Source: a phage. From it: a stretch of DNA of 64,000 bases. Below the pieces are notes generated by a model, which searched no databases, was not told where the DNA came from, and saw only the letters and a program-made list of their open reading frames with translations. Numbering within the stretch: the stretch's first letter is position 1; each line of letters opens with the position of its first letter. Location: sequence record NC_094493.1, one strand, 5' to 3'. Below are positions 9,780-61,790 of this stretch, one piece after another. A program made the translations under genes and the position numbers.

Positions 9780-10790
9780 CTTGAAAATTCCTGGCATATC
9801 AAGTATAAGGGGGATTTCTAAAATGGATTTCCTCCTTTTGATATTTCACCGGGCCGGATATTTTAAAATTCTTAGAAAATCAGAAAATGGATCGAAAACT
9901 AAAATGGATTTTTCAGAGTAGGCGCGACAAGCTGAATAACTCATCCTATCGTTTGCACCATATTCCAGGCCACCATTATAGATTTCCCACACATGCTAAC
10001 CTCCCTCTACTAGAACTTCCTCCACTTACCCTTGACCTTCTATGGTAACAATCTAACCACTATCTTGAAGTTGCGGTGCAGCTTTCCAGGTACTCGATCT
10101 ACTTTTCATTTCAGGGCTTGGATTTTCTGAAAATTTTTCTCGATAAATTTCTCAGTACTCGATCTGTTTTTCGTTTTCTGAATCGGATTTTCTGGAAATC
10201 GTTCCGGCTCTCGACCTGAAATTTTTGGGGACGAAATCGATTTTTCGTTTTCAGAAATGGATTTTTAAAATTTCTATATGGGAATATTTTAGTGGATACT
10301 ATTTTATAGGAAATTGTTACGGAGGGTAATTAGCGTGCTAATTAAATTTATTAAATGCGAGGAGTTCTCATTTAGAATTTTGAATGATAATCATTCTCGT
10401 TTGCAGAATAACGGGCAGGCCCGGTGATTGTCTCCCGGCCCCTACTGCCCCGGCTTGTTATTATAGTAACACACAGGACAAAGAAAGCAAGAAGTTTTTG
10501 CATAAATTTTTAGACGATAATGATAATCGTTCTCATTTCATGCAGCGCCCATCCCCGGTGGTTGTCTCCCCCGTCACCGGTGCCTGCCGTCCTTTCGATA
10601 GGTATATTTTGCCACCTGGCGGGGCCGCTGTCAACACTTTTCAAAAAAAAAAAATTCTAACCTGATGCGCTGACCGCTGCAACCTGGCGGGGCCAGCCTG
10701 GCAGGGCCTAACTGACCAGGTAGGAGAGAATGAAGGCTTGCAAACCTGGTGGGCCTATGCTATAGGATAGGTAACAATTGAAGAGGAGGT
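9780..10790. repeat. Repeat-rich non-coding region (iteron-like short repeats, tandem ~60-bp repeats, duplicated ~70-bp units)
   Basis: AAAATGGATTT recurs at least four times; tandem repeats at 10088-10275 (GTACTCGATCT...TTTTCGTTTTC...GGATTTTCTG); two related units 10383-10454 and 10515-10590; CCTGGCGGGGCC recurs. Confidence 0.6.
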
Positions 10791-10973: not shown

Positions 10974-11058
10974 TGGTTGACAGCTCGGACAGTTCTTGTT
11001 ATTCTTATCCTCGCAAGGTGAACAACACCACACCAATTAACAGAGAGGATAAAAAATC

Positions 11059-11256
11059 ATGAACGCCTACGGAATTAAAGTACGTCGCAACACTCGCCAG
11101 GTGGTCACCAATCAAGTGATTTGCCGGGTGGATGTAACCATCAACAACGGGCAAGGCCTTTATAAATTTCGTCGCGGTCATAGCTATACCCTGCAACAGC
11201 TTAACCGTTGCGCCCTGACAAAAGGTCAGATCAACCACTGGTTTAATAAAAAATAA
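11059..11256 (+). CDS. hypothetical basic protein
   Basis: Own TTGACA promoter (~10977); conserved RBS gaggataaaaaatc ATG. Confidence 0.5.
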   Translation: MNAYGIKVRRNTRQVVTNQVICRVDVTINNGQGLYKFRRGHSYTLQQLNRCALTKGQINHWFNKK

Positions 11257-11319
11257 TGTTGACATATGGTCTGACACAAAATACACTGAAATCGCAAAAG
11301 ACACTAAGAGGATAAAATC

Positions 11320-11718
11320 ATGAAAACCACTACCTTTAATTTTGATAATGCGGACTTTTCTTTTTCTGATGTCAAGAACTGCCGCCGTGATCGTGGATTT
11401 TACAAGTCTTATAATCTGGTGGGCCTGGACGATGACAATAATTTGCACGAAGTAGCTGAGATCCGGTATTATGCCGCCGCCAGTGGTAACACTCACTACT
11501 GCGTGTTTTGGATTCACGACAACAAGAACAATAAGTACGGTTATACTGGCGGCAAGGCGAGCGGTCACGGTTACGATAAAGCTAACGCAGCACTTGAGAG
11601 TGCATTAAATGCTATGGAGATCACTGCCGACGGCTGGATCTACGAAGAAGAGTTTTTGTCGGCACTTGCTGACCACCTGGGCTATAAAAAGCACATTGTG
11701 ACATGCGCCCACGAATAA
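11320..11718 (+). CDS. hypothetical protein
   Basis: Promoter TTGACA ~11258; RBS gaggataaaatc ATG. Confidence 0.55.
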   Translation: MKTTTFNFDNADFSFSDVKNCRRDRGFYKSYNLVGLDDDNNLHEVAEIRYYAAASGNTHYCVFWIHDNKNNKYGYTGGKASGHGYDKANAALESALNAMEITADGWIYEEEFLSALADHLGYKKHIVTCAHE

Positions 11719-11800
11719 AAATCATTGACACGCTGCAAAATTTAAGTAAACTAGACACAAAAGGCGGGAATGTTTCCCGCCAGCACAAAGGAAAAAGATC

Positions 11801-12205
11801 ATGAATAAGAACGTACGCCGCATCATGAACGAACTGGCAAACGATGAAAAAATTATTGACATGCACTTAGTGAACATTTGCCGCCGTTGTGTAACCTATA
11901 ACAACCGCGCCGCAAAAGCGCGTGAGATGAACGCAAAAGGCACCTTAAAGCCCTTCCAGGTGGTGGTAAAGGCCATTAAAGATGTAGCTAATACGGCAAA
12001 CCAGGTACAGGGGAACACCAACGAGAGTACCAATATTGATCCGGCTTACATCATGAAACGGATCCGGACCTGCAAGAACAAAGAGCAAGTGTATAACGTC
12101 ATAGACTGGTTGGATTCCATGGGCGACGTGGTTTATAATAGGTTTTCTGCAGCCATTGAGATCCAGCTAGACAGGTTGGACGGGAAAGTACTAAAAACTT
12201 ATTGA
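11801..12205 (+). CDS. hypothetical protein
   Basis: Promoter TTGACA ~11727; leader hairpin ggcgggaatgtttcccgcc (11763-11781); RBS. Confidence 0.55.
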   Translation: MNKNVRRIMNELANDEKIIDMHLVNICRRCVTYNNRAAKAREMNAKGTLKPFQVVVKAIKDVANTANQVQGNTNESTNIDPAYIMKRIRTCKNKEQVYNVIDWLDSMGDVVYNRFSAAIEIQLDRLDGKVLKTY

Positions 12206-12208
12206 GTT

Positions 12209-12252
12209 TATTTTTAGATGGCCTTGACTCCAGGGCCATCGATAAAGTAAAC
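12209..12252 (+). repeat. Conserved ~45-bp intergenic hairpin element, copy 1
   Basis: TATTTTTAGATGGCCTTGACTCCAGGGCCATCGATAAAGTAAAC; inverted repeat GATGGCC/GGCCATC around TTGACT; near-identical copies at 12829 and 16571. Confidence 0.6.
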
Positions 12253-12285
12253 TAATCTCAGTTAAGCGAAAAAGGGGGCTTTAAG

Positions 12286-12405
12286 ATGGGCACTACACGC
12301 CAATACACAAAGGTAACTATTATCGTCTGCGTTGTCGGTTACATCCTGGCGCAAATGTTAATGAGTAGCGCTAACAGTTTTGCAAAATTTTTCTTAAATT
12401 TTTAA
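12286..12405 (+). CDS. small hydrophobic peptide (39 aa)
   Basis: ATG after RBS aaaggggg; predicted single transmembrane helix; below ORF-track size cut-off. Confidence 0.3.
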   Translation: MGTTRQYTKVTIIVCVVGYILAQMLMSSANSFAKFFLNF

Positions 12406-12434
12406 TTGACAAGCTAACTTAGATCGGTATACTT
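12406..12434 (+). promoter_or_regulatory. sigma70-like promoter
   Basis: TTGACA, ~16-17 bp spacer, TATACT; followed by leader hairpin and RBS of gene 12485. Confidence 0.5.
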
Positions 12435-12484
12435 AAACCCGTAAACGGGAAAACTTCCCAGAACACACAAAAGGAGAAAACACC

Positions 12485-12826
12485 ATGACCACTATGACCG
12501 CCGCAGAAAAAGCTATTCAGGTTGCCGCACTGAAAAAACAGATCGCAGACCTTGAGAACAAGATCGATACCTTTGAAATCGACGAGGACAAGTACGACGA
12601 AAACTATGATGAATGGTTAGACGAGATCTACGGCGAAATCATGATCGGAAACATTTCTTTTCTTCCGTCGCGTATCCTCAAGGAGCTAGATCCTATCGCT
12701 TACCGCTGCGGATTTAGCGACTACATCGACAGCCTGGATATTGAGGACGATGAAGAATACCAGGAATTACAGACAGAGTTAGAAGAAGCAAAAGAAGAGC
12801 TTGCGGAGCTGGAAGAAAACGAGTAA
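12485..12826 (+). CDS. hypothetical acidic coiled-coil protein
   Basis: Promoter, hairpin leader, RBS aaaggagaaaacacc ATG; highly acidic. Confidence 0.55.
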   Translation: MTTMTAAEKAIQVAALKKQIADLENKIDTFEIDEDKYDENYDEWLDEIYGEIMIGNISFLPSRILKELDPIAYRCGFSDYIDSLDIEDDEEYQELQTELEEAKEELAELEENE

Positions 12827-12828
12827 GA

Positions 12829-12873
12829 TTATTTTTAGATGGCCTTGACTCCAGGGCCATCAATAAAGTAAAC
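12829..12873 (+). repeat. Conserved ~45-bp intergenic hairpin element, copy 2
   Basis: Near-identical to 12209-12252, placed directly after a stop codon. Confidence 0.6.
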
Positions 12874-12915
12874 TTTATACTGTTAACACTGAACTAATGC
12901 ATAGGAGTTAAAACC

Positions 12916-13161
12916 ATGGCAGCACTAATCACCAAATATTATGCCCCTACCAACACCAAAAGCGCCCGTATCATGGTAAAAGGCTTCGGACGTAAAAAGG
13001 TTTACACCTGGGATTATGCCTTAGACACGGAAGACAACTACACCAACGCGATGACAGATTTTATTAATGAGCTGAACACGCGGATCTTGACAAATTATAA
13101 AATTACCGATATTGCCTATATAGGGGAAGGCGGGATCTGTTTTGTCGGTATCGTCAAATAA
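12916..13161 (+). CDS. hypothetical protein
   Basis: RBS/start region ataggagttaaaaccatggc identical to that of gene 17188. Confidence 0.55.
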   Translation: MAALITKYYAPTNTKSARIMVKGFGRKKVYTWDYALDTEDNYTNAMTDFINELNTRILTNYKITDIAYIGEGGICFVGIVK

Positions 13162-13236
13162 ACTGTTTTTTCGGTGGTCCTGGTAGCAGGGCCATCTATA
13201 AAGATAGTTTATCAATACAATGAAAGGAGAAAGTAC

Positions 13237-13590
13237 ATGATCAGCGGGGCAAGTTTTATTATTGGCGCTATTGCTACGGCTTTAATTGTAAACAAGATCC
13301 AATCTAAAAATGAAAAAGAGAGCAACGCGCTCACAGAATACCCATTTTGGGTATTCAACGACAATGAAGACTACATTATCAAGTACAAGAATGAGAAGGG
13401 CGACCAGGTAACACCGCGACCGATCCCAGCTTACAAGATGCAAGAAACACTATACCGCCTAAAGGCTGGAGGCGCAAAAATCGTAGACTTTTGGGGATAT
13501 GATTGCAAGGATCAGGAGGTTATAAAGCGCCGTATCCGGGCTATTCAGGCCAATATTGAAGTTAGCAAGGGGGGAATATATGAAGATTAA
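13237..13590 (+). CDS. hypothetical protein with N-terminal transmembrane helix
   Basis: RBS aaaggagaaagtac ATG; preceded by a degenerate copy of the 45-bp element (13168-13205). Confidence 0.5.
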   Translation: MISGASFIIGAIATALIVNKIQSKNEKESNALTEYPFWVFNDNEDYIIKYKNEKGDQVTPRPIPAYKMQETLYRLKAGGAKIVDFWGYDCKDQEVIKRRIRAIQANIEVSKGGIYED

Positions 13591-13777
13591 TTTTGAGAAG
13601 ATTGTAAAGCGATCTCATGATTCCAAAGAGCTGCCGGAACGACGCCAGCGCAACAATAAACTGAATAAGCCAAAAAGATTTGGGAAGATCTGGCGGAATC
13701 ATTATGATCGTAAATTGCCGGGCCTACTTTTGGAACGTGAACGACAGGCGGAACGATACCGCCACAAAGGCAAATAA
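13580..13777 (+). CDS. hypothetical basic protein
   Basis: RBS aaggggggaatat ATG; R/K-rich; followed by terminator. Confidence 0.4.
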   Translation: MKINFEKIVKRSHDSKELPERRQRNNKLNKPKRFGKIWRNHYDRKLPGLLLERERQAERYRHKGK

Positions 13778-13784
13778 CAACCAA

Positions 13785-13812
13785 CGCCCCGCCATTGTGC
13801 GGGGCTTTTTTA
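13785..13812 (+). terminator. Intrinsic terminator
   Basis: Hairpin cgccccgccattgtgcggggc followed by TTTTTT. Confidence 0.6.
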
Positions 13813-14023
13813 TTTCTATCCTACGAATAGCGCCCCTGGTTGGCCCTGTAAACGCCATAAAAGCCCCTACCTATGCAATCCCCTTTCTTAACCTGAAAAC
13901 AGCGTCTAGGGCCGTTTTATGGCGTTAAAAATGTTATTGACAGTGATTTTATTTAAAGCTTGACACCTTGGAATAGTCCGGATATACTGACCACATCAAA
14001 GCAAGAAGGAAGGAGTAAACGCC

Positions 14024-14284
14024 ATGCGTAAATTGAAAAATTTTGATAAGGTAGATGTAGTACTGAATAATTTTTACTACTGCAATAATAAAGCCGTTTG
14101 GTGGCGTGATAGTTCCACCGATAAAGTTAAGGCGCGCTTTCTCCAAGGGCACTGGCAAGGCCGTCCAGTGATTAAAATCATGGGGCAATTGGTAGCGTTT
14201 AAAAATTGCCGCCGTGTTGATGACGTTGAAGAGATTTTAAGCATTTTGCGCCACAATAATTTAAAAAATAGTGTTGACAAGTAA
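14024..14284 (+). CDS. hypothetical protein
   Basis: Promoter-like TTGACA at ~13938/13962; RBS aaggaagga. Confidence 0.5.
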   Translation: MRKLKNFDKVDVVLNNFYYCNNKAVWWRDSSTDKVKARFLQGHWQGRPVIKIMGQLVAFKNCRRVDDVEEILSILRHNNLKNSVDK

Positions 14285-14300
14285 ATCTCGATAAGTATAC
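14273..14300 (+). promoter_or_regulatory. sigma70-like promoter
   Basis: TTGACA, 16 bp spacer, TATACT; leader begins with hairpin ggcgggaaaacttcccgcc (14311-14329). Confidence 0.5.
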
Positions 14301-14358
14301 TTAAACACACAGGCGGGAAAACTTCCCGCCACTAACAAAGAAAATAGGAGAAAATATC

Positions 14359-14982
14359 ATGACCACCGTTAACATTACCACAGGTTACAATTTATCTTTC
14401 GACGTGCTGACCGATGAACAAAAAGAAAAAGCTATTGAAATGGTCCGCGAAAGAGAAGAACACAGCGGGGATAACTTTTTTGCAGAAAGTGTAATTGAAG
14501 ACTATAAAGAACATATCTTTCCAGAGTATGGCCTTGAAGATACCAAGGTACATTGGTCCGGCTTTTGGTGCCAGGGCGACGGCGCGTCAATCAGTGCGGA
14601 AAACGTGGATTTAGAAAAATTCTTGCGTAAAGTCAAGTCTCTGACTAAATTCCGCTCAATTCGTCACTTGTTCGGCACAATGCACGATGGCGAGCTATCC
14701 GCAAGTGTTGAGCGTGATCCATATAGCCGCTATAGTCACGAAAACACTGTAAGCGGGTACATCGATACTACATGGCTAGACCTGACAGCCAAGCAAGAAA
14801 GTAAGGTTGAAGAGCTGGAAGAGCTGATCACCGAGACGGTACGGGAGCTATCCCGCAAGGTTTATGTAGACCTGGAGGAGGCCTATCTTGAACAGTTTAC
14901 TACCGAAAACCTGATCGGCCTTATTGAAGCCAATGATTGGCGGTTTAATGTGGATGAATATGGGGAGATGAGTTTTTCATAA
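14359..14982 (+). CDS. hypothetical acidic protein
   Basis: 207 aa ORF behind promoter, leader hairpin and RBS ataggagaaaatatc ATG. Confidence 0.6.
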   Translation: MTTVNITTGYNLSFDVLTDEQKEKAIEMVREREEHSGDNFFAESVIEDYKEHIFPEYGLEDTKVHWSGFWCQGDGASISAENVDLEKFLRKVKSLTKFRSIRHLFGTMHDGELSASVERDPYSRYSHENTVSGYIDTTWLDLTAKQESKVEELEELITETVRELSRKVYVDLEEAYLEQFTTENLIGLIEANDWRFNVDEYGEMSFS

Positions 14983-15071
14983 ATAAAGTGTTGCAATAAT
15001 CTAAAAACCTGCTATATTAAAACTCAAGGGGCGAGATGACTTGCCCCACACAAAACAAAGAGGAAAACATC

Positions 15072-15452
15072 ATGAAAAACACCACCAAGGCTATTGACAC
15101 CGTTATGTTTAACCTGGTTACATTCCGTGAAGATATGAAAGATCTTCCACGTGAAACTGTGTGCGACCATATCGAAAACTATCGCAAACTAATCAAAGAG
15201 TTGCCTTTAAAACGTGACCAATATGCGGCTAACGCTATGCTTAACGCCATGATCAAAAAGATGATTCAGTGTGATTTAACTCTGGCCTATGATTATGCAG
15301 GTGGTCGTTTTGCAGTATACAATCAGCCCGTGCCTGGTATGAGCACCACCGAAGAATTGCACGCGCTCAATCTAAAACAAGATGTGTGGGATAGTATGCC
15401 CCGCGTGGTGGTATGGGTAGAAAGCGGAAAGATTTACGGCGATAATTTTTAA
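15072..15452 (+). CDS. hypothetical protein
   Basis: Leader hairpin ggggcgagatgacttgcccc (15028-15047); RBS gaggaaaacatc ATG. Confidence 0.55.
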   Translation: MKNTTKAIDTVMFNLVTFREDMKDLPRETVCDHIENYRKLIKELPLKRDQYAANAMLNAMIKKMIQCDLTLAYDYAGGRFAVYNQPVPGMSTTEELHALNLKQDVWDSMPRVVVWVESGKIYGDNF

Positions 15453-15462
15453 TCAGGTAACA

Positions 15463-15491
15463 GGCGGCGGCATATTTGCCGCCTTATTGTT
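15463..15491 (+). terminator. Putative intrinsic terminator
   Basis: Hairpin ggcggcggcatatttgccgcc followed by a T-rich tract. Confidence 0.45.
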
Positions 15492-15519
15492 AATCAGAAC
15501 TGTAAAAGAGGTACATAGA

Positions 15520-15891
15520 ATGGAATTTATTATTTTGGCTATATTAGTTGCCTTGTTTAACGCCTGGATCGCTGGCAAGATGGGCAGATCCGCCTTTTTA
15601 TGGTTTATTATATCTATTTTCCTGGGAGTGGTTGCAACTATTGTATTGGTTATCCTTGCAATTGTTGACAAGGGGAATAATAGAAAGGGTAAAGTATTTT
15701 CAGACCTGTACGACGCTCAAACATTTGTCAACGCCTACTACAGCGATCTTCCAGTCTCCCTACGTTGCAGCCTTGCACAACAGGTTTTCGATGAAGCTAA
15801 AACCAGAGATCACGCCCATGAGATTTGTTTAACTGAGGCGGATCGCCTATTTGAGAGGAATAGAAAATATGTGGACCAGCCGTTTAAATAA
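15520..15891 (+). CDS. putative membrane protein
   Basis: RBS aaagaggtacatag ATG; two predicted transmembrane helices followed by a soluble C-terminal domain. Confidence 0.5.
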   Translation: MEFIILAILVALFNAWIAGKMGRSAFLWFIISIFLGVVATIVLVILAIVDKGNNRKGKVFSDLYDAQTFVNAYYSDLPVSLRCSLAQQVFDEAKTRDHAHEICLTEADRLFERNRKYVDQPFK

Positions 15892-16090
15892 TGCCACGTT
15901 AATTAATCCCTTTAGTGAAGATTTGAAGCCAGCCGCCTGGCGCGATGGATTCAATAACGAAAGCTTTATTTTCAGGCCTGATCTTAAGGAATTTTATAAC
16001 AATGGATCGAACAACGACAGAGATAATTTTTCTTGTAATGTGCGTGGTGATAATACTCCTGGGGGCCATTGCAAACCACGTCACTGCTAA
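15869..16090 (+). CDS. hypothetical protein
   Basis: ORF overlapping upstream gene end, RBS gagga; frame assignment uncertain; other small transmembrane-peptide ORFs overlap here. Confidence 0.3.
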   Translation: MWTSRLNNATLINPFSEDLKPAAWRDGFNNESFIFRPDLKEFYNNGSNNDRDNFSCNVRGDNTPGGHCKPRHC

Positions 16091-16234
16091 CAGGAGGGAA
16101 GGGGGAGACGATGACAACCAAGGATAAGCCCCGCACCGATAAGGTGCGCCGTGTTATGGTATGGCTTGAGATCATCGCCCTTGAAATATTGTTAGGCGTA
16201 GGGATGTACTTTATCGCTGTAAGTAACTGATAAC

Positions 16235-16265
16235 GGCCCCCAATCCCTGGGGGCTTAACTTTTTC
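16235..16265 (+). terminator. Intrinsic terminator
   Basis: Hairpin ggcccccaatccctgggggc followed by a T-rich tract. Confidence 0.55.
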
Positions 16266-16366
16266 AAAAATTTTTCTTCCCGGGTGTTGCAATCCGGTCC
16301 GGAATATGGATAATAACAATCAACGGGGAGCAATCCCCACCACAAAGACTAGAAAGGAGAAACAAA

Positions 16367-16567
16367 ATGAGCAATAATATCCGCGTTATTAACTTCAAAA
16401 AAGAAGAAAAAATTGCCGTGCTGATTGACGGTCAAGAAATCTTTAAAGGTGATTATGAAGATCATCAAACGGCGATTAGTATCACTCGCGTGATTGGTTA
16501 CCACAATTTTTACCCTCAAGGCGCTGAGGCAGCAGTAAAACGAATTAAAGAGATTGTAGGCCTGTAA
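16367..16567 (+). CDS. hypothetical protein
   Basis: Promoter-like TTGCAA ~16287; leader hairpin ggggagcaatcccc; RBS aaaggagaaacaaa ATG. Confidence 0.5.
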   Translation: MSNNIRVINFKKEEKIAVLIDGQEIFKGDYEDHQTAISITRVIGYHNFYPQGAEAAVKRIKEIVGL

Positions 16568-16570
16568 AAT

Positions 16571-16614
16571 TTATTTTTAGATGGCCTTGACTCCAGGGCC
16601 ATCGATAAAGTAAA
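16571..16614 (+). repeat. Conserved ~45-bp intergenic hairpin element, copy 3
   Basis: Near-identical to copies at 12209 and 12829. Confidence 0.6.
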
Positions 16615-16658
16615 TTTAAACCCTGTTAAAATAATCAGTGCAAAAAGGAGTAATGATC

Positions 16659-16958
16659 ATGTTTATCCAGGCTAATAATCTTTATTTCTTTGATGGTCAG
16701 ATCGTAGACGGCGTGGAAGTAGAGATCACTGGGTGCCCCGGTGGTCAGGCTATGATGTTCCGTAATAATGCCTTTGATGATCCCTGTATCCTCCTGGCGA
16801 TGGAAGTTACCAAGCTGGATGATAAGAAAACGCTGATTGACTATTCTATTAAAGATCATCCTGATTATCATATGATTCATGGCGATCTGTGTATCGTTGA
16901 CCGTGACAAGGTGGGCGGCATTGTGATCGCTATTGTGAACGATGTTTTCTCTAAATAA
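16659..16958 (+). CDS. hypothetical protein
   Basis: RBS aaaggagtaatgatc ATG at 16659. Confidence 0.5.
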   Translation: MFIQANNLYFFDGQIVDGVEVEITGCPGGQAMMFRNNAFDDPCILLAMEVTKLDDKKTLIDYSIKDHPDYHMIHGDLCIVDRDKVGGIVIAIVNDVFSK

Positions 16959-17187
16959 TTCCGGCAAATGATGCAAAATAAGGCCCCTGGCAGGGCCTGC
17001 AGCGATATAATCACATAAAGGCTATGCGGTTGCATGGCCTTTATTATTTTAGCGTTACAGCTGCCCCCAAGGCGCTTAAAAAATTTTTAAAGAAGTACTT
17101 GCATCAAGTCCTACAATATGGATAATAAAGGGTGTCGGGGGGCGGTGAGGCCTCCAATCATTAACCAGATAGATAGGAGTTAAAACC

Positions 17188-17472
17188 ATGGCTATTGTTA
17201 CCGTTGGCGATGTAGTAGAAATGGAAGCCAAATACTTAAAAGCGGGTATGCATATCATACGGAATGATCAAGAATTGTTATTAACCATGGTTGAATATAA
17301 TCCCGGTCAGGATTATCCTAGCGTTGACTACTTTTTCCAGTATGTTGATGAAGAATTAAAAGAGGATGAGGCTTATCAGGGTGAATTTTGTAATTTCTTT
17401 TGCCCTGATGAGGTTGTAAAAGTTATTTATCAACCTGGCGTACCTTTCCCGTTGCACGCCATCAATAAATAA
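17188..17472 (+). CDS. hypothetical protein
   Basis: Promoter-like TTGCAT ~17098; RBS/start region identical to gene 12916. Confidence 0.55.
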   Translation: MAIVTVGDVVEMEAKYLKAGMHIIRNDQELLLTMVEYNPGQDYPSVDYFFQYVDEELKEDEAYQGEFCNFFCPDEVVKVIYQPGVPFPLHAINK

Positions 17473-17534
17473 GCCTGGCGGGGCCGAAAAGGCCCCTCCT
17501 GAAATTATGAAAAAATAAAGAGGGGTAAATCATC

Positions 17535-17762
17535 ATGATTGAACAAGTTAAACGCGCCGAGGCTATTAATGGCAATGTGATCTATTTTGTCAGCAAAAAC
17601 GAAAAAGTACCATATGCGGCGGTAATAGTACAGCCTGACGGCAATTATTGGTTTACTGTATACGGATCTTATTCTTTTGGGCGTCCGGTGCATGATAGAA
17701 TTTTGAAAGTAGCGAACCCTACCGGGAAGAATATCACAGCAGAAAAATTTTTTGAAAAATAG
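17535..17762 (+). CDS. hypothetical protein
   Basis: RBS aagaggggtaaatcatc ATG. Confidence 0.5.
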   Translation: MIEQVKRAEAINGNVIYFVSKNEKVPYAAVIVQPDGNYWFTVYGSYSFGRPVHDRILKVANPTGKNITAEKFFEK

Positions 17763-17793
17763 TTGACATGACCGTATAAGACTGTAGTATATA
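17763..17793 (+). promoter_or_regulatory. sigma70-like promoter
   Basis: TTGACA, then TATATA-like -10; leader hairpin gggggcaagcccc follows. Confidence 0.45.
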
Positions 17794-17838
17794 AATCAAA
17801 GGGGGCAAGCCCCACCAACCACAAAGAGGATAAAAACC

Positions 17839-18018
17839 ATGGCTATTATTGCAAAGACCGAGATTGTAGGGTTAGATTCTATTCTCCTGGCATATGAGGA
17901 AGCTATAGAAATGTATGTGGTTTCCTACGGTGAATATATCCGTGAATATAAATCTGTTGATCTAGCTTTTGAATGTTATATTCGCCAGGTCAATAAAGCA
18001 TATGATGATTATCGTTAA
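17839..18018 (+). CDS. small hypothetical protein (59 aa)
   Basis: Conserved RBS aagaggataaaaacc ATG behind promoter and hairpin; below ORF-track size cut-off. Confidence 0.4.
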   Translation: MAIIAKTEIVGLDSILLAYEEAIEMYVVSYGEYIREYKSVDLAFECYIRQVNKAYDDYR

Positions 18019-19425: not shown

Positions 19426-19440
19426 TATTTATAAACTACA

Positions 19441-19472
19441 AAACAGGGCTTGCAATGGTCCTGTTTTTTGTT
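19441..19472 (+). terminator. Putative intrinsic terminator
   Basis: Imperfect hairpin acagggcttgcaatggtcctgt followed by TTTTTT. Confidence 0.45.
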
Positions 19473-19484
19473 ATACTTATTCCA

Positions 19485-20238: not shown

Positions 20239-20382
20239 TACAACAAGTTACATGGTCAGGGGCAATAAAGCCCCTTGATTACATAAAAATTATGCTATCC
20301 CTTGTTGACAGGGATCGGCAGTTTTGCTATATTCTTTTTTGAAGGGAAGTTGTAAGAAAATTAACTAAGAGGTAAAAACACC

Positions 20383-20802
20383 ATGAACATTAAATCTGAT
20401 AATCCGGCATATAGCTTTGATAACGCTTTTTGTCACGGTCCGGCGGCGAAAGGATTCGAAATCGATGGTAAACTAGTTATTGTTAATGTTGACGGGGAAG
20501 AGGTTGCAGTATATCCGGTGGCAGACGTTAAAAGCCGTCTACAATGCCGCATGGATGTTACCGCCTATCAGCTTGATCCGGTCCGGGTAGTTGCCCTGGT
20601 CCTGGAAGAAGAAATTAAAGCAATGCACCACAGCAACAAGTTTATTGGTGACGCTCAAGATAATATGCAGGTATGCCGCTATAAAGTTAATGAAGTGCTT
20701 AAAGAGTACGGCTATAAGGATTTAATGATCAAGCGTGATGAAAAATTCCGCTACCGTAACGACCTGGCAAATCGGATTTTTGAAATATACGAATCATTAT
20801 AA
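20383..20802 (+). CDS. hypothetical protein
   Basis: Promoter TTGACA ~20305 with -10 TATATT; RBS agaggtaaaaacacc ATG; terminator follows. Confidence 0.55.
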   Translation: MNIKSDNPAYSFDNAFCHGPAAKGFEIDGKLVIVNVDGEEVAVYPVADVKSRLQCRMDVTAYQLDPVRVVALVLEEEIKAMHHSNKFIGDAQDNMQVCRYKVNEVLKEYGYKDLMIKRDEKFRYRNDLANRIFEIYESL

Positions 20803-20820
20803 TTTTTTAACTGAATTATC

Positions 20821-20846
20821 AAGGGGCTTAGGCCCCTTTCTTTTTG
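20821..20846 (+). terminator. Intrinsic terminator closing the + strand block
   Basis: Hairpin aggggcttaggcccct followed by TTTCTTTTT. Confidence 0.65.
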
Positions 20847-20849
20847 TCT

Positions 20850-23290
20850 GCTCTTCCCCCTACCATAAACGGCCCTACCTGGCAAGTGGAATAATTGACG
20901 AGCCATCAATCCCACACACTGTACAAATATACATGTAAAATAGCTATTGCATAACCTTTCATTGTGTGGTAGCAGGGCTATTTTTACCCGTTTTCCCTTC
21001 CAAAATTGCACGTAATGCCGCTATTGCACAAATTTTAACCTGATGCACATCTCCAATATCTTGTCAACAACTAAAAATCTTTATAAGTCATACACTTACA
21101 CAACATAGAAAGCGTGTCCTACGCGAAAAATCGAGTATAACTATAGCCGCCAGATCTCAGAATTCACGTACGCACGCCATTCTATAGCCTGCAAAGTATT
21201 TATTCCAACCACAGAATAACGGAATAGTCAATACCTGCATAAAATAATTATTCGTGTAAACTGCATAACATAAATCAGCTCAGGTGTCAACATTTTTCGT
21301 AAACAGTCCGAAATTATCACGATGAGTTATCATAAACAGAGAAATCTTTAGTCGTCTAATGTTTACTGTACATTACTATACTGACTGGAATCATTAGATG
21401 ACTAAGAGAAAGATAAGAAATAATTAATAATGTGATTATTTTACCTGTAACAATAAGGCAACTATGCAAACGAATGGCATGGCGCGACGGAGTCGCGACA
21501 TAATATAAAAGCAGTAACCATCACCCCCGTGATAGTTTGTCTGCAATCTATTAATCAGATCATAGTTGCCTTGTATTTAGTTAATCATGACATAACAAGC
21601 AAGGCAACTATAGATCTTCTAATAGTTGCCCTGCTTTTATATTATGTCATAGAAACACCCGAAGGGGTGACCAAAGGTCACCTGGCATAGCCAGCGAAAG
21701 ATTATTAACTTGCTAATCGTTATCATGCAAACGAATGGCATGGCTTATAATTTTTGAGCAAATAGTCTATACGTGAACAGTGAGGCATGCAATAGTAACA
21801 ATTGTTATTATATCCAGTGTTTAGTTTGCCCAGTGTGTCACTATTATGTCATATTATGTCACAGTATGTCAGACAAGTTTTTCTCCTCTTTGTCAAGTGC
21901 TGCATGAAAAATTTACAAGCTGGTATGGTAGCATTTTTGCGGTCCTGTTTACATTCAGTAATGTATGTATAATCCTTGTTGTGTGGGCGTTTAGACGTCT
22001 AGACGGTTGGAAGTCCACAGGTCAATATCTAATCTATCGGCTGCTAACTATATCCCACACAAATAGTAAGAAATATGATTGTTATATGCGTAAACAGTAA
22101 CTCATGTTATCAATCCCTGTATGTATCGCCAGTGGTGCGCATAATGGGTATTATGTTAAATTGCCCGTAATGATAATGGTTCTCACAATGATATGTATTC
22201 TCATTCCCCCACACAAAATAGATTGCAAATGTTGTGCCACTATGTGAACGGCCTCACCTATTAATTTGCCTCACTGCCTCGATATTTGAGAATTGTTATA
22301 AGAATGAGAATGATTCCCATTTCGTCCGCCTGGCAGCACTCCTGTAGGACAAGCACAAAATCGTGGCATAGCTGGACCTGTTCAGATATTTCTGGCTGGC
22401 TCTTCAGGTCTGTGTGGGAAAAGCCAACCCCCTCCGGCGGCGGGGAGGGTGTCAATTAAAAAATTTATGGGGTATATGAAGCGCTCTTCAGGTAAGGCAT
22501 GTACTATGGGATGAAACCCTCTTCAGGCAATGATATTTGTGGGTGTGATATTTGCTGGAAAGCCAGATATGACGGGACTCCCGGCGGGGCAGGGGTAGTA
22601 CAGACAGGGAAAATATGGGGATGTAGTTGGGTGAATTGATCGGGCAGGTAGAGTACGGAATATGTTACAAGTATGTTAAATATGGAGGGTGAATATCTGC
22701 AGGATTTGTGTGTAAAATCAAAGACTTAAGTAGTGTTGTGGTATTTTCTATAAATAATTCAAGTTTAATAGGTAATATTTGTCTCTATCCACTTTGTGTG
22801 GTAAACAAATTCAAATGAGATTGGTTTACAAGTGTATACATAATATGCAAATTAAAGATACAAGAAACCCCCCTCCCCCTTCGGCTACCATTCACCTTTT
22901 CCTCTGACTGGTACTTAAACACTTATTCAGACTCTTCAGGTTATCACCCATACACCATATGGCAGTGACTGGTGTCCTCCGGCCCCTCTTTCGTCACCCG
23001 TCCGCTTCGCCATGCTAATGCCATAGCCAAATGTTCGGTTGTTCACCCTGTTCACTCAGGTGTATCTCCATACCCCTTCAAACCGAAGAGAACAGAAAAC
23101 CCGAATTACTCGGTAAAAGAAAAGAGAAGAACTTAATTTTATCAGGATAGGCAAGAATGTCAAGGCATGACTGCTCACTAAACAAGCAAACAGTCATGTG
23201 TGGGAGGTAAGTGATTGTGGTGGTAGGAAATTTAGTTGAAAGATGTGTTATAGGTGCTTCCAGCACTTTAGCCTGGCAGCTAATTGTGTG
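20850..23290. other. ~2.4 kb non-coding, repeat-rich convergence region between the + and - gene blocks
   Basis: No convincing ORF. Short direct repeats (AACGAATGGCATGGC x2; GGCAACTAT/ATAGTTGCC in both orientations; TATGTCA x3; CTCTTCAGG x3); GC hairpins around 22430 and 22580. Confidence 0.5.
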
Positions 23291-61633: not shown

Positions 61634-61706
61634 ACCAGTAAAAACTTAAATATCTGTACTATAAGGATTCGTATGTTTTATGTTCGCTCTGGAACAGAGG
61701 TCAGTA

Positions 61707-61790
61707 ACTGTCCGTGATACGGACACTACTGTCCGTCACGCGGACACATCTGCCCGTAATACGGACACTAACTGTCCGTGATACGGACAC
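61707..61790. repeat. Four tandem 21-bp imperfect palindromes (iteron/operator array)
   Basis: ACTGTCCGTGATACGGACACT repeated four times head-to-tail with minor variation; each is a GTCCGT-N3-ACGGAC palindrome. Confidence 0.75.

What the first reader, a model, noticed from the sequence alone, without database searches (positions are those of the whole stretch)
12209..16614. Near-identical 45-bp hairpin element placed directly after three different stop codons
TATTTTTAGATGGCCTTGACTCCAGGGCCATC(G/A)ATAAAGTAAA occurs at 12209, 12829 and 16571, with a degenerate copy at ~13168. The GATGGCC/GGCCATC stem encloses a TTGACT loop. It is not a canonical terminator (no downstream T-run) and not a good promoter, yet it is nearly invariant, more so than the flanking genes. 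It may be an RNA processing site, a protein-binding site or a small repeat unit that propagates within the array.
Basis: seen in the sequence. Interest (0 to 1): 0.5.

Follow-up and report, generated by a model that had tools for sequence, protein, structure and literature searches.

The report
Repeated hairpin cassette between phage genes
Four copies of a ~55-base sequence that folds into a long two-part RNA hairpin sit on the stop codons of small early genes of an rV5-like E. coli phage; they probably mark where early messages are cut or protected (three may also restart transcription), and recombination between them deletes gene cassettes.

Summary
The window is the early small-gene region of a Vequintavirus (rV5-like myovirus). 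It holds three near-identical copies (12209, 12830, 16572) and one diverged copy (13164). About three copies per genome occur in 120 GenBank relatives, and none in bacterial genomes.

Each copy is a 50-55 nt bipartite hairpin on the sense strand:
- an AU-rich lower stem of 10-13 bp that includes the upstream stop codon;
- a 2/3-nt asymmetric internal loop;
- a 10-bp GC-rich upper stem and a tetraloop.

The diverged copy keeps this fold through compensatory and wobble changes but has no TTGAC. Pairing is therefore the conserved feature.

The geometry resembles T7-type RNase III processing signals, down to the canonical UA/UG distal box. The three canonical copies also read as a weak sigma-70 promoter (TTGACN-18-TAAAYT).

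Hybrid copies in five relatives show recombination between copies that removes the intervening cassette.

Best reading: a Vequintavirus counterpart of the T4-type PeSL cassettes, with an RNA processing or stability hairpin at its core. The fold and the recombination are shown. RNase III cleavage and promoter activity are inferred. I rate it a new member of a known kind, of modest interest.

The parts
12205..12253 (+). Copy 1, a bipartite hairpin. Lower stem 12205-12214 pairs with 12244-12253. Internal loop is 12215-12216 (UA) opposite 12241-12243 (GAU). Upper stem 12217-12226 pairs with 12231-12240. Tetraloop 12227-12230 (ACUC). The last base of the upstream stop codon TGA (12203-12205) is in the stem.
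   Evidence: -26.2 kcal/mol, z -7.2; the minus strand folds at only -16.4. CM score 82.2 bits on + versus 40.6 on -.
12825..12875 (+). Copy 2, a bipartite hairpin. Upper stem 12838-12847 pairs with 12852-12861. Lower stem 12829-12835 pairs with 12865-12871, then one A x A mismatch, then 12825-12827 pairs with 12873-12875. The stop codon TAA 12824-12826 overlaps the stem.
   Evidence: -21.1 kcal/mol, z -6.1; 79.9 bits.
13158..13212 (+). Diverged copy with the same architecture. The lower stem is 13 bp (13158-13170 with 13200-13212). Internal loop is UC opposite UAU. Upper stem 13173-13182 pairs with 13187-13196 and has two G.U pairs. Tetraloop is GUAG. There is no TTGAC. The stop codon TAA 13159-13161 lies inside the stem.
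   Evidence: -27.6 kcal/mol, z -8.1; the minus strand folds at only -11.3; compensatory changes relative to the canonical copies; 71.6 bits.
16567..16617 (+). Copy 3, a bipartite hairpin. Lower stem 16567-16577 pairs with 16607-16617. Upper stem 16580-16589 pairs with 16594-16603. The stop codon TAA 16565-16567 abuts the stem.
   Evidence: -24.7 kcal/mol, z -7.0; 80.1 bits. The G-C pair of copy 1's lower stem is A-U here, with both sides changed (columns 8/54).
12224..12253 (+). Putative sigma-70 promoter overlay of copy 1. The -35 TTGACT (12224-12229) lies in the top of the upper stem and the loop. The spacer is 18 bp. The -10 TAAACT (12248-12253) lies in the 3' strand of the lower stem. The same overlay occurs at 12845-12874 (copy 2) and 16587-16616 (copy 3, -10 TAAATT). 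It is absent from the diverged copy.
   Evidence: 9 of 12 matches each. PhagePromoter predictions over copies 2 and 3 in the Gotham record. Sequence match only.
12243..12244 (+). Predicted RNase III-type cleavage position, CAUCGAU|AAAG, on the 3' side of the internal loop and 11 positions from the tetraloop. Equivalent positions are 12864|12865, 13199|13200 and 16606|16607.
   Evidence: Inferred by mapping the distal and proximal box rules of Pertzev & Nicholson 2006 (PMC1540722) and the T7 R-site folds onto the fold. Not tested.
12254..12829 (+). Cassette between copies 1 and 2: a 39-aa ORF (12286-12405), the strong promoter TTGACA-16-TATACT (12406-12433) and a 113-aa ORFan (12485-12826). It is absent from four relatives, which carry a single hybrid copy instead.
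   Evidence: ECP26, ime, magaca and IMG/VR contig L119.
12876..13157 (+). Cassette between copy 2 and the diverged copy: an 81-aa ORFan (12916-13161). It is absent from phage 241Ecol014PP, where the left half of copy 2 is fused to the right half of the diverged copy.
   Evidence: 26-nt overlap at the junction.

Best explanation
The element is an intercistronic regulatory cassette specific to Vequintavirus (rV5-like) phages. It is the functional counterpart of the PeSL ('promoter-early stem-loop') cassettes of T4-type phages.

Its conserved core is an RNA structure. In the sense transcript, each copy folds into a 20-23 bp bipartite hairpin that begins on the stop codon of the upstream ORFan.

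The hairpins lie inside predicted polycistronic early units. One example is P12406 - gene - copy 2 - gene - diverged copy - two genes - terminator 13786. So they are most likely read through and act after transcription.

The most likely agent is host RNase III. I predict a cut on the 3' side of the asymmetric internal loop (...AU|AAAG). That would leave the upstream message with a protective 10-bp GC hairpin at its 3' end and free the downstream message, as happens with T7 early mRNAs.

The three canonical copies probably also carry a weak sigma-70 promoter: a T-rich upstream tract, TTGACN in the apical loop, an 18-bp spacer and TAAAYT. The same ~50 nt would then end one gene's message and can start the next.

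Because the copies are ~96-100% identical over ~50 bp, they recombine. This deletes or moves the cassettes between them and homogenises the copies, which explains the near-invariance.

Shown: the repeat, the strand-specific fold and its covariation, and the recombinant junctions.
Inferred: read-through, RNase III cleavage (my estimate ~0.45), promoter activity of the canonical copies (~0.5).
For: Fold: all four copies fold at -21 to -28 kcal/mol (z -6 to -8) on the + strand. The - strand gives -11 to -16. CM scores are 72-82 bits on + and 34-41 on -.

Covariation, over 38 distinct sequences from ~25 genomes:
- 92.7% of cells are paired, against 36-56% when the partners are slid.
- The upper helix is 100% paired, and its four varying pairs all keep pairing (A-U/G.U, C-G/U.G, U.G/C-G/U-A, G-C/G.U).
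- The lower helix has both-sided changes at four inner pairs, for example G-C 18 / A-U 11 / G.U 5.
- A more distant relative (85% identity) keeps the hairpin at -22.6 kcal/mol despite two 1-nt insertions.

RNase III likeness:
- 20-23 bp in total, with the asymmetric internal loop at the 11th position from the loop, as in the T7 R0.3 and R1.1 folds.
- Counting from the loop, the pairs are G-C, U-A, U.G, C-G, C-G, G-C, G-C, U-A, A-U, G-C, then A x G.
- That gives the canonical UA/UG distal box, the middle-box C-G of R1.1, A-U at proximal-box position 2, and no G-C at position 4 (PMC1540722).

Read-through: the gene after the promoter-less diverged copy (13237-13590) shows coding-type conservation, 96.8% at positions 1+2 against 85.2% at position 3. 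So that hairpin cannot be an efficient terminator.

Promoter overlay:
- 9 of 12 match and PhagePromoter calls in the Gotham record.
- Loop variation in the canonical copies falls only on loop positions 3-4, so TTGAC is kept.
- Two unrelated hairpins in the window also hold a -35 in their loop, at 19440 and about 20296.
- Relatives SSBI34 and FKP3 have other promoter-inside-hairpin cassettes.

Recombination:
- Hybrid copies with exact junctions occur in ECP26, ime, magaca and L119 (copy 1 x copy 2, 621 bp lost) and in 241Ecol014PP (copy 2 x diverged copy).
- The loop variants ACAC and ACUU are each found at all three loci in different genomes.

Context: the flanking genes are all PHROG families of unknown function. 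Other cassette indels in the region have their breakpoints at promoters. This is the 'hyperplastic region' behaviour described for PeSLs (PMC2839356).
Against: There is no RNA-end or expression data for any Vequintavirus in the searchable literature. Cleavage, read-through and promoter activity are therefore all untested.

Proximal-box positions 1 (U-A instead of G-C) and 3 (G-C instead of A-U) depart from the optimal RNase III consensus. The diverged copy also lacks the U.G of the distal box. In a minimal substrate these changes lower reactivity.

Most of the covariation comes from comparing four paralogous sites and closely related genomes (90-97% identity). The number of independent events is therefore small, roughly ten.

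The promoter match is weak: an 18-bp spacer and a 4/6 -10 hexamer. It is absent from one of the four copies.

GenBank annotators disagree about the element: 'terminator' in Murica and 'promoter' in Gotham.
Confidence: 0.55

Rival explanations
1. It is essentially a host-type (sigma-70) early promoter. The hairpin is secondary, serving as an attenuator of upstream transcription as in classical PeSLs, or being incidental.
For: TTGACT-18-TAAACT preceded by a T-rich tract. PhagePromoter predictions in the Gotham record. TTGAC is invariant in the canonical copies while the sixth position takes all four bases. Other hairpins hold -35 or -10 boxes in this window and in relatives. PeSL subclasses with a stem-loop over the -35 are described (PMC2839356).
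Against: The diverged copy has no -35, yet it is 95% conserved and keeps the whole fold by compensatory changes. In L126 two 1-nt insertions move the spacing from 18 to 20 bp while the hairpin is kept. The strand upstream of the -35 covaries with the -10 region, which a promoter does not require. The match is only 9 of 12 with a suboptimal spacer, whereas the region's real early promoters score 10-11 of 12.
Confidence: 0.2
2. It is a transcription terminator or attenuator that works without a U-tract and stops early transcripts at the end of each upstream gene.
For: A stable GC-rich hairpin sits immediately after stop codons. The Murica record annotates the diverged copy and copy 3 as terminators. 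A PeSL stem-loop reduced reporter expression as strongly as a strong terminator (PMC2839356).
Against: No T-run follows the upper or the full hairpin on either strand. The same region has canonical terminators with T-runs at 13786, 15462, 16235 and 17015. The conserved gene 13237-13590 lies downstream of the promoter-less diverged copy and would then have no source of transcripts.
Confidence: 0.12
3. It is an operator. The inverted repeat GATGGCC...GGCCATC in double-stranded DNA binds a dimeric phage or host regulator that controls the overlapping -35.
For: A near-perfect palindrome centred on a -35-like hexamer, with near-invariant sequence.
Against: The diverged copy differs at three positions of one arm only. 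This leaves G.U or U.G wobbles on the + strand but mismatched half-sites in duplex DNA. The conserved U.G pairs in both stems make the DNA palindrome imperfect. The AU-rich lower stem also covaries, which a 7-bp half-site model does not explain.
Confidence: 0.05
4. It is a selfish or neutral dispersed repeat (MITE-like), or a single-stranded DNA hairpin used in replication or priming, with no role in gene expression.
For: Dispersed near-identical copies, recombination between them, and sharing of variants between loci.
Against: The copy number is fixed at three or fewer canonical copies, at the same loci and in the same orientation, in 120 genomes. There are no target-site duplications or terminal inverted repeats beyond the hairpin itself. 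The family is absent from 185,579 bacterial genomes. Every copy has the same placement on a stop codon in the sense orientation. The diverged copy keeps the fold under selection.
Confidence: 0.05

Closest known systems
PeSL (promoter-early stem-loop) cassettes of T4-type phages (Arbiol et al. 2010, PMC2839356; Comeau et al. 2014, PMC4122927)
   Same: - Repeated ~50-100 bp intergenic motifs in an ORFan-rich, plastic early region.
- The upstream stop codon lies in an AT-rich stretch.
- A sigma-70-like -35/-10 is combined with a stable stem-loop; one described subclass has the stem-loop over the -35.
- A Shine-Dalgarno sequence and the next start codon follow.
- Indels between related phages are bounded by the motif, with a single chimeric motif left at the junction.
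   Different: - A different phage lineage (Vequintavirinae, not T4-like) and an unrelated sequence.
- Only 3+1 copies rather than ~50.
- The stem-loop is a long bipartite 20-23 bp hairpin with an asymmetric internal loop and no poly-G/poly-C or U-tract.
- One copy has the hairpin without any promoter, so here the RNA fold, not the promoter, is the conserved core.
- Promoter and terminator activities and mini-circles have not been tested for this element.
Phage T7 early-mRNA RNase III processing signals (R0.3, R0.5, R1, R1.1, R1.3)
   Same: - Intercistronic hairpins in polycistronic early transcripts of an E. coli phage.
- A ~10-bp GC-rich upper stem with a tetraloop, an asymmetric internal loop that is one nt longer on the 3' side, and a weaker lower stem.
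- A 3' loop sequence ending in AU before the predicted cut (T7 UAU|GAU; here NAU|AAAG).
- The canonical UA/UG distal box and A-U at proximal-box position 2.
- T7 sites also lie beside promoters.
   Different: - No sequence homology.
- The internal loop is 2/3 here rather than 4/5.
- Proximal-box positions 1 and 3 are non-consensus.
- Cleavage has not been demonstrated.
- The copies are near-identical repeats that recombine, which is not a feature of the T7 sites.
Rho-independent terminators
   Same: A GC-rich hairpin immediately after a stop codon. Annotated as such in one GenBank record.
   Different: There is no U-tract. The T-rich run lies upstream of the hairpin and pairs with the A-rich run downstream.

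Membership tests
PeSL (T4-type promoter-early stem-loop cassette) | Sigma-70-like -35 and -10 boxes with an AT-rich upstream region | tested here: inconclusive
   Three copies have TTGACT-18-TAAAYT (9 of 12) after TATTTTTA. The diverged copy has no -35. This is a consensus match only; activity is unknown.
PeSL (T4-type promoter-early stem-loop cassette) | A stable stem-loop within or overlapping the promoter | tested here: met
   Folds of -21 to -28 kcal/mol, z -6 to -8, with the -35 in the apical loop.
PeSL (T4-type promoter-early stem-loop cassette) | Upstream stop codon in the AT-rich 5' part; Shine-Dalgarno and start codon of the next gene at the 3' end | tested here: met
   The stop codons lie in or against the lower stem. 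GGAG-type Shine-Dalgarno sequences and ATG follow 33-43 nt after the element.
PeSL (T4-type promoter-early stem-loop cassette) | Located in a plastic region rich in ORFans | tested here: met
   All eight flanking proteins match PHROG families of unknown function. Multiple cassette indels separate close relatives.
PeSL (T4-type promoter-early stem-loop cassette) | Indels between related phages are bounded by the motif, leaving one chimeric motif | tested here: met
   Hybrid copy 1/copy 2 in ECP26, ime, magaca and L119. Hybrid copy 2/diverged copy in 241Ecol014PP.
PeSL (T4-type promoter-early stem-loop cassette) | Demonstrated promoter and terminator or attenuator activity; excised mini-circles | not testable with these tools
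   Needs reporter assays and outward-facing PCR on infected cells.
E. coli RNase III processing signal (T7 R1.1 type) | About two helical turns (20 bp or more) of double-stranded RNA | tested here: met
   A 10-bp upper stem plus a 10-13 bp lower stem.
E. coli RNase III processing signal (T7 R1.1 type) | Asymmetric internal loop at the scissile position, about 11 bp from the apical loop, giving a single 3'-side cut | tested here: met
   The 2/3 internal loop begins at position 11 from the tetraloop. T7 R0.3 and R1.1 fold likewise with a 4/5 loop. This concerns geometry only.
E. coli RNase III processing signal (T7 R1.1 type) | Distal box UA/UG next to the loop (a positive determinant) | tested here: met
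   U-A then U.G at positions 2-3 from the loop in 29 of 30 distinct canonical sequences; the exception has U-A at the second position. The diverged copy has U-A then C-G.
E. coli RNase III processing signal (T7 R1.1 type) | Proximal box: G-C, A-U/U-A, A-U, A-U/U-A; no G-C/C-G at positions 2 and 4 | tested here: inconclusive
   Observed U-A, A-U, G-C, A x G. Positions 2 and 4 are acceptable. Positions 1 and 3 are off consensus.
E. coli RNase III processing signal (T7 R1.1 type) | rnc-dependent cleavage in vivo or in vitro | not testable with these tools
   No transcript-end data for any Vequintavirus was found.
Rho-independent terminator | A U-rich tract directly after a GC-rich hairpin | tested here: not met
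   GAUAAAGUAAA follows the upper stem, and no T-run follows the full hairpin. The copies are not among the terminator-like sites of the scan.
Any curated RNA family (Rfam 15, including CRISPR repeat families) | Covariance-model match | tested here: not met
   No hit on the copies up to E = 1 over 15 kb, or up to E = 10 over 1 kb.

The most novel reading that the evidence does not exclude
The cassette could be a portable 'gene insulator' for a large myovirus. A single ~55-nt module would be cut by host RNase III, ending and stabilising the upstream message. About 16 nt further on, it would restart transcription from a promoter embedded in the same hairpin. Read-through and newly started transcripts would then give nearly the same downstream mRNA. 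Its sequence identity would also let any ORFan flanked by two modules be excised, lost or moved. That would extend T7-style RNase III punctuation of early mRNA to an unrelated phage lineage and give PeSL-type cassettes a concrete RNA mechanism. Relatives with other promoter-inside-hairpin families (SSBI34, FKP3) would use the same principle.
Probability: 0.25. Interest if true: 0.5.

Novelty: new member of a known kind. Interest (0 to 1): 0.35.

Why it matters
rV5-like phages are widely isolated and are used for E. coli O157 biocontrol and in therapy cocktails, yet their early gene regulation is unstudied. The genome paper lists only sigma-70 promoters and terminators. Database records label this element 'promoter' in one genome and 'terminator' in another.

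Recognising it as a structured, strand-specific RNA hairpin cassette has three uses:
- It gives a testable model for how early polycistronic messages are punctuated.
- It explains recurrent gain and loss of ORFan cassettes between otherwise ~93% identical phages.
- It shows that the PeSL principle extends beyond T4-like phages.

Practically, it corrects conflicting annotation. It also marks natural, tolerated sites for inserting or removing genes when engineering these phages.

Tried and rejected
- A loose 14-base pattern scan of IMG/VR returned almost only chance hits. Only three of its loci (from two contigs) carried real copies. The stricter 22-base pattern found two viral contigs and four metagenome contigs (seven loci).
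- A scan of 185,579 bacterial and archaeal genomes found nothing. The element is therefore neither a host nor a prophage repeat.
- Rfam scans found no family, CRISPR-repeat models included. I dropped the idea of a CRISPR-repeat mimic (Racr-like) or any known riboregulator.
- A covariance model of the element found no further copies in the 64-kb window. The next best hits score under 14 bits.
- Literature searches for the exact sequence, for Vequintavirus transcriptomes, and for stem-loop promoters in PVP-SE1 or rV5-like phages found nothing relevant. The rV5 genome paper does not mention the element.
- Terminator reading: rejected as the main function, because there is no U-tract and a conserved gene lies downstream of the promoter-less copy.
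- Double-stranded DNA operator reading: rejected, because pairing survives only through + strand wobbles.
- Type III antitoxin (ToxI-like) mimic: not pursued, because the copies are dispersed rather than tandem.
- Codon-position conservation for three genes (15073, 15521, 16112) used wrong frames and is not cited.

Full report
WHAT THE WINDOW IS

A megablast of 11000-18000 finds 198 phage records. The best are 93-96% identical over the full length, and all are Vequintavirus (rV5-like myoviruses of ~137 kb), including the type phage rV5. The region is a run of small + strand genes with strong host-type promoters (TTGACA-16/17-TATACT) and a few canonical terminators. All eight proteins flanking the finding belong to PHROG families of unknown function. 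One of them (13580-13777) is a homologue of T7 gp1.1.

CHECKING THE OBSERVATION

The 24-nt core occurs exactly three times on the + strand, and none is expected by chance. The repeat family has four members: 12205-12253, 12826-12874 and 16568-16616 (96-100% identical), and 13161-13209 (65%). Each begins 3-5 nt after a stop codon, and none is followed by a T-run.

In GenBank, 120 records carry the element, in 346 places. That is about three per genome, all in Vequintavirus. It is absent from 185,579 bacterial and archaeal genomes and matches no Rfam family.

Against ten relatives the elements are 96.5% identical, versus 93.7% for the genes and 93.0% for other intergenic DNA. That is the level of codon positions 1+2 and well above third positions. 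'More invariant than the genes' is true, but only modestly.

WHAT IT REALLY IS

All four copies form the same bipartite hairpin on the + strand:
- an AU-rich lower stem of 10-13 bp;
- an internal loop of 2 nt (5' side) and 3 nt (3' side);
- a 10-bp upper stem (GAUGGCCUUG with CAGGGCCAUC, including one U.G);
- a tetraloop.

Energies are -21 to -28 kcal/mol, with z-scores of -6 to -8. The reverse strand folds much worse, at -11 to -16. The T-rich run before the stem and the 'ATAAAGTAAA' after it are simply the two strands of the lower stem. In every case the upstream stop codon lies in or against that stem.

The diverged copy is the informative one. It shares the 3' arm of the upper stem. Its 5' arm differs at three positions, each of which keeps pairing only through wobble (A-U to G.U, C-G to U.G, U.G to C-G). 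Its lower stem has true compensatory changes. Its loop is GUAG, and it has no TTGAC.

I collected 38 distinct sequences from about 25 genomes and metagenome contigs. On this alignment:
- 92.7% of cells are paired, against 36-56% for slid controls.
- The upper helix is paired in every sequence.
- Four inner pairs of the lower helix show both-sided changes.
- The two single substitutions seen in canonical upper stems both keep pairing (G-C to G.U, U.G to U-A).
- An 85%-identical relative has one-base insertions in the loop and in the internal loop and still folds at -22.6 kcal/mol.
- One genome (Gotham) has a decayed copy 1, with a 5-nt deletion that destroys the upper stem.

A covariance model finds only these four copies in the window.

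A caveat applies. The genomes are close (90-97% identical) and much of the covariation is between paralogous sites. Independent events therefore number about ten, not dozens.

HOW IT PROBABLY WORKS AT THE RNA LEVEL

The predicted signals place each hairpin inside a multi-gene unit:
- P11725 - gene - copy 1 - small ORF;
- P12406 - gene - copy 2 - gene - diverged copy - two genes - terminator 13786;
- P16287 - gene - copy 3 - gene - terminator 17015.

The gene after the promoter-less diverged copy is under coding constraint. That hairpin must therefore allow read-through.

A 20-23 bp hairpin with an asymmetric internal loop, lying between cistrons of an E. coli phage's early mRNA, is the architecture of the T7 RNase III processing signals. 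Folding the T7 intergenic regions gives the same picture. There is a ~10-bp GC-rich upper stem with a tetraloop, then an internal loop one base longer on the 3' side. The 3' strand reads ...CCUUUAU GAU.

I mapped the rules of Pertzev & Nicholson (PMC1540722) onto the canonical copies, counting from the loop:
- position 1: G-C;
- positions 2-3: U-A, U.G. This is the canonical distal box, and the U.G is the most stringent position;
- position 4: C-G;
- position 5: C-G, as in R1.1;
- position 6: G-C, a substitution reported to enhance cleavage;
- position 7: G-C;
- position 8: U-A (proximal box 1, off consensus);
- position 9: A-U (proximal box 2, acceptable);
- position 10: G-C (proximal box 3, off consensus);
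- position 11: A x G (proximal box 4, non-Watson-Crick, as in native R1.1).

The predicted cut is after (G/A/U)AU, at 12243|12244, 12864|12865, 13199|13200 and 16606|16607. It would leave the upstream message ending in a 10-bp GC hairpin. This is an inference from geometry and partial rule-matching. No transcript-end data exist for these phages.

THE PROMOTER OVERLAY

The three canonical copies match TTGACT-18-TAAAYT (9 of 12) behind a T-rich tract. PhagePromoter marked copies 2 and 3 in the Gotham record.

In favour of a real promoter:
- Among canonical copies the loop varies only at its third and fourth bases (ACUC, ACUU, ACAC, ACCC, ACGC). TTGAC is therefore kept while the sixth -35 position is free.
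- Two unrelated hairpins in the window also hold a -35 in their loop, at 19440-19477 and about 20296-20333.
- The relatives SSBI34 and FKP3 have families of ~22-bp hairpins that wrap a TTGACG...TATAAT promoter.

Against a real promoter:
- The match is weak.
- One copy lacks it.
- In L126 the spacing becomes 20 bp while the fold is kept.

I put promoter activity at about even odds. The Murica record calls two of the copies terminators. The absence of any U-tract and the need for read-through argue against that as the main role.

RECOMBINATION

This part is shown directly.

Four genomes have one element whose left flank is that of copy 1 and whose right flank is that of copy 2. They are ECP26, ime, magaca and IMG/VR contig L119. 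The 621-bp cassette between the copies is gone. That cassette holds the 39-aa ORF, promoter P12406 and the 113-aa ORFan. Their flanks, their loops and the type of diverged copy they carry differ between genomes. This suggests more than one event, or later exchange.

Phage 241Ecol014PP has the left half of copy 2 fused to the right half of the diverged copy. It lacks the 81-aa gene between them.

In magaca the sequence diverges about 12 nt after copy 3.

The same loop variants appear at all three loci in different genomes, which points to copy-to-copy conversion.

Other cassette indels in the region have their breakpoints at the repeated sigma-70 promoters: YP-6 at 14268/14981 and 17768/18015, and L119 at 18072/18318.

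COMPARISON WITH WHAT IS KNOWN

This behaviour is what Arbiol et al. described for PeSL cassettes in T4-type phages. Those are repeated promoter-plus-stem-loop motifs in ORFan-rich plastic regions. The upstream stop codon lies in an AT-rich part, with a Shine-Dalgarno sequence at the 3' end. Stem-loops sit in several positions, including over the -35, and indels are bounded by chimeric motifs (PMC2839356; PMC4122927). The sequence-level features that can be tested here are met, except that the promoter match is weak.

The differences are:
- the lineage (Vequintavirinae);
- the low copy number;
- the long bipartite, U-tract-less hairpin;
- one copy that has the fold without a promoter.

The term PeSL appears in only four papers of the searchable library, none on rV5-like phages. 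The rV5 genome paper does not describe the element.

VERDICT

This is a real, conserved, strand-specific RNA hairpin cassette that also acts as a recombination substrate. I classify it as a new member of the PeSL kind with T7-like RNase III-substrate geometry. The fold and the recombination are shown. The processing and promoter activities are inferred and are directly testable by end-mapping in rnc+ and rnc- hosts. Interest is modest (0.35).

Noticed in passing
window 10043-10386 (repeats at 10080-10126, 10145-10191, 10219-10265): A 344-nt non-coding stretch holds three ~65-nt tandem direct repeats (70-74% identical) and a 16-bp hairpin at 10221-10258. It could be an iteron or origin-like region.
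   Followed up: no
window 11725-11790, 12406-12471, 14274-14339, 17763-17815: A second cassette class. Strong promoters (TTGACA-16/17-TATACT or similar) are followed within ~10-25 nt by a short GC hairpin in the 5' UTR, such as GGCGGGAAAACTTCCCGCC. These look like 5' stabiliser stem-loops. Copies 12406 and 14274 are 74% identical over 66 nt.
   Followed up: partly
window 14268/14981, 17768/18015, 18072/18318; loci L124, L119: Single-gene cassettes are missing in phage YP-6 and in contig L119, with breakpoints at the repeated sigma-70 promoter sequences. Promoters as well as the hairpin element therefore act as recombination points.
   Followed up: partly
window 19440-19477 and 20296-20333: Two unrelated hairpins carry a -35 hexamer in their loop. 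The first is AAAACAGGGC-TTGCAATG-GTCCTGTTTT plus a T-run, then TATACT, which looks like a terminator overlapping a promoter. The second is TCCCT-TGTTGAC-AGGGA, within TTGACA-17-TATATT.
   Followed up: partly
window 13580-13777: This 65-aa protein matches Pfam PF08200 (bacteriophage T7 protein 1.1) at 40.5 bits, above the 21-bit cut-off. In T7, gene 1.1 lies directly after RNase III site R1.1.
   Followed up: no
L140 (Salmonella phage SSBI34) 5923, 6632, 8836, 9756, 10392, 11177; L141 (Klebsiella phage FKP3) 5262, 5514: These relatives have their own repeated cassettes. A ~22-bp hairpin encloses a whole promoter, with TTGACG/T in the lower stem and TATAAT in the loop, for example TTGACGTTGGTTTATGCC....TATAAT....GGCATAGGCAAACG.
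   Followed up: partly
window 16659-16958 and 16958-16971: The gene after copy 3 is the most divergent in the region (85.6% identical, third positions 71%) and is replaced by another allele in phage magaca. Several relatives (YP-6, 241Ecol014PP, Murica, ECP26, ime, magaca) carry an extra 351-nt gene inserted just after it.
   Followed up: no
window 20797-21848: A ~1-kb stretch has no plausible ORF, many long inverted repeats and a strong terminator at 20821. It lies where the + strand early genes end.
   Followed up: no
GenBank MG0656xx records (e.g. L133): About 20 'Campylobacter phage' records, marked UNVERIFIED, are 92-97% identical to E. coli rV5-like phages across this region. The host label is probably wrong, or the stocks were contaminated.
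   Followed up: no
window 61699-61790: Three copies of a 28-nt repeat (GGACACTAACTGTCCGTGATACGGACAC), spaced 42 and 22 nt apart, each containing a short hairpin.
   Followed up: no
L123 (rV5_ev146, an evolved rV5 derivative): A 511-bp deletion (window 11787-12298) removes the 134-aa gene and copy 1. Its junction is a 10-nt microhomology, not the element. A larger deletion follows after 13725.
   Followed up: no
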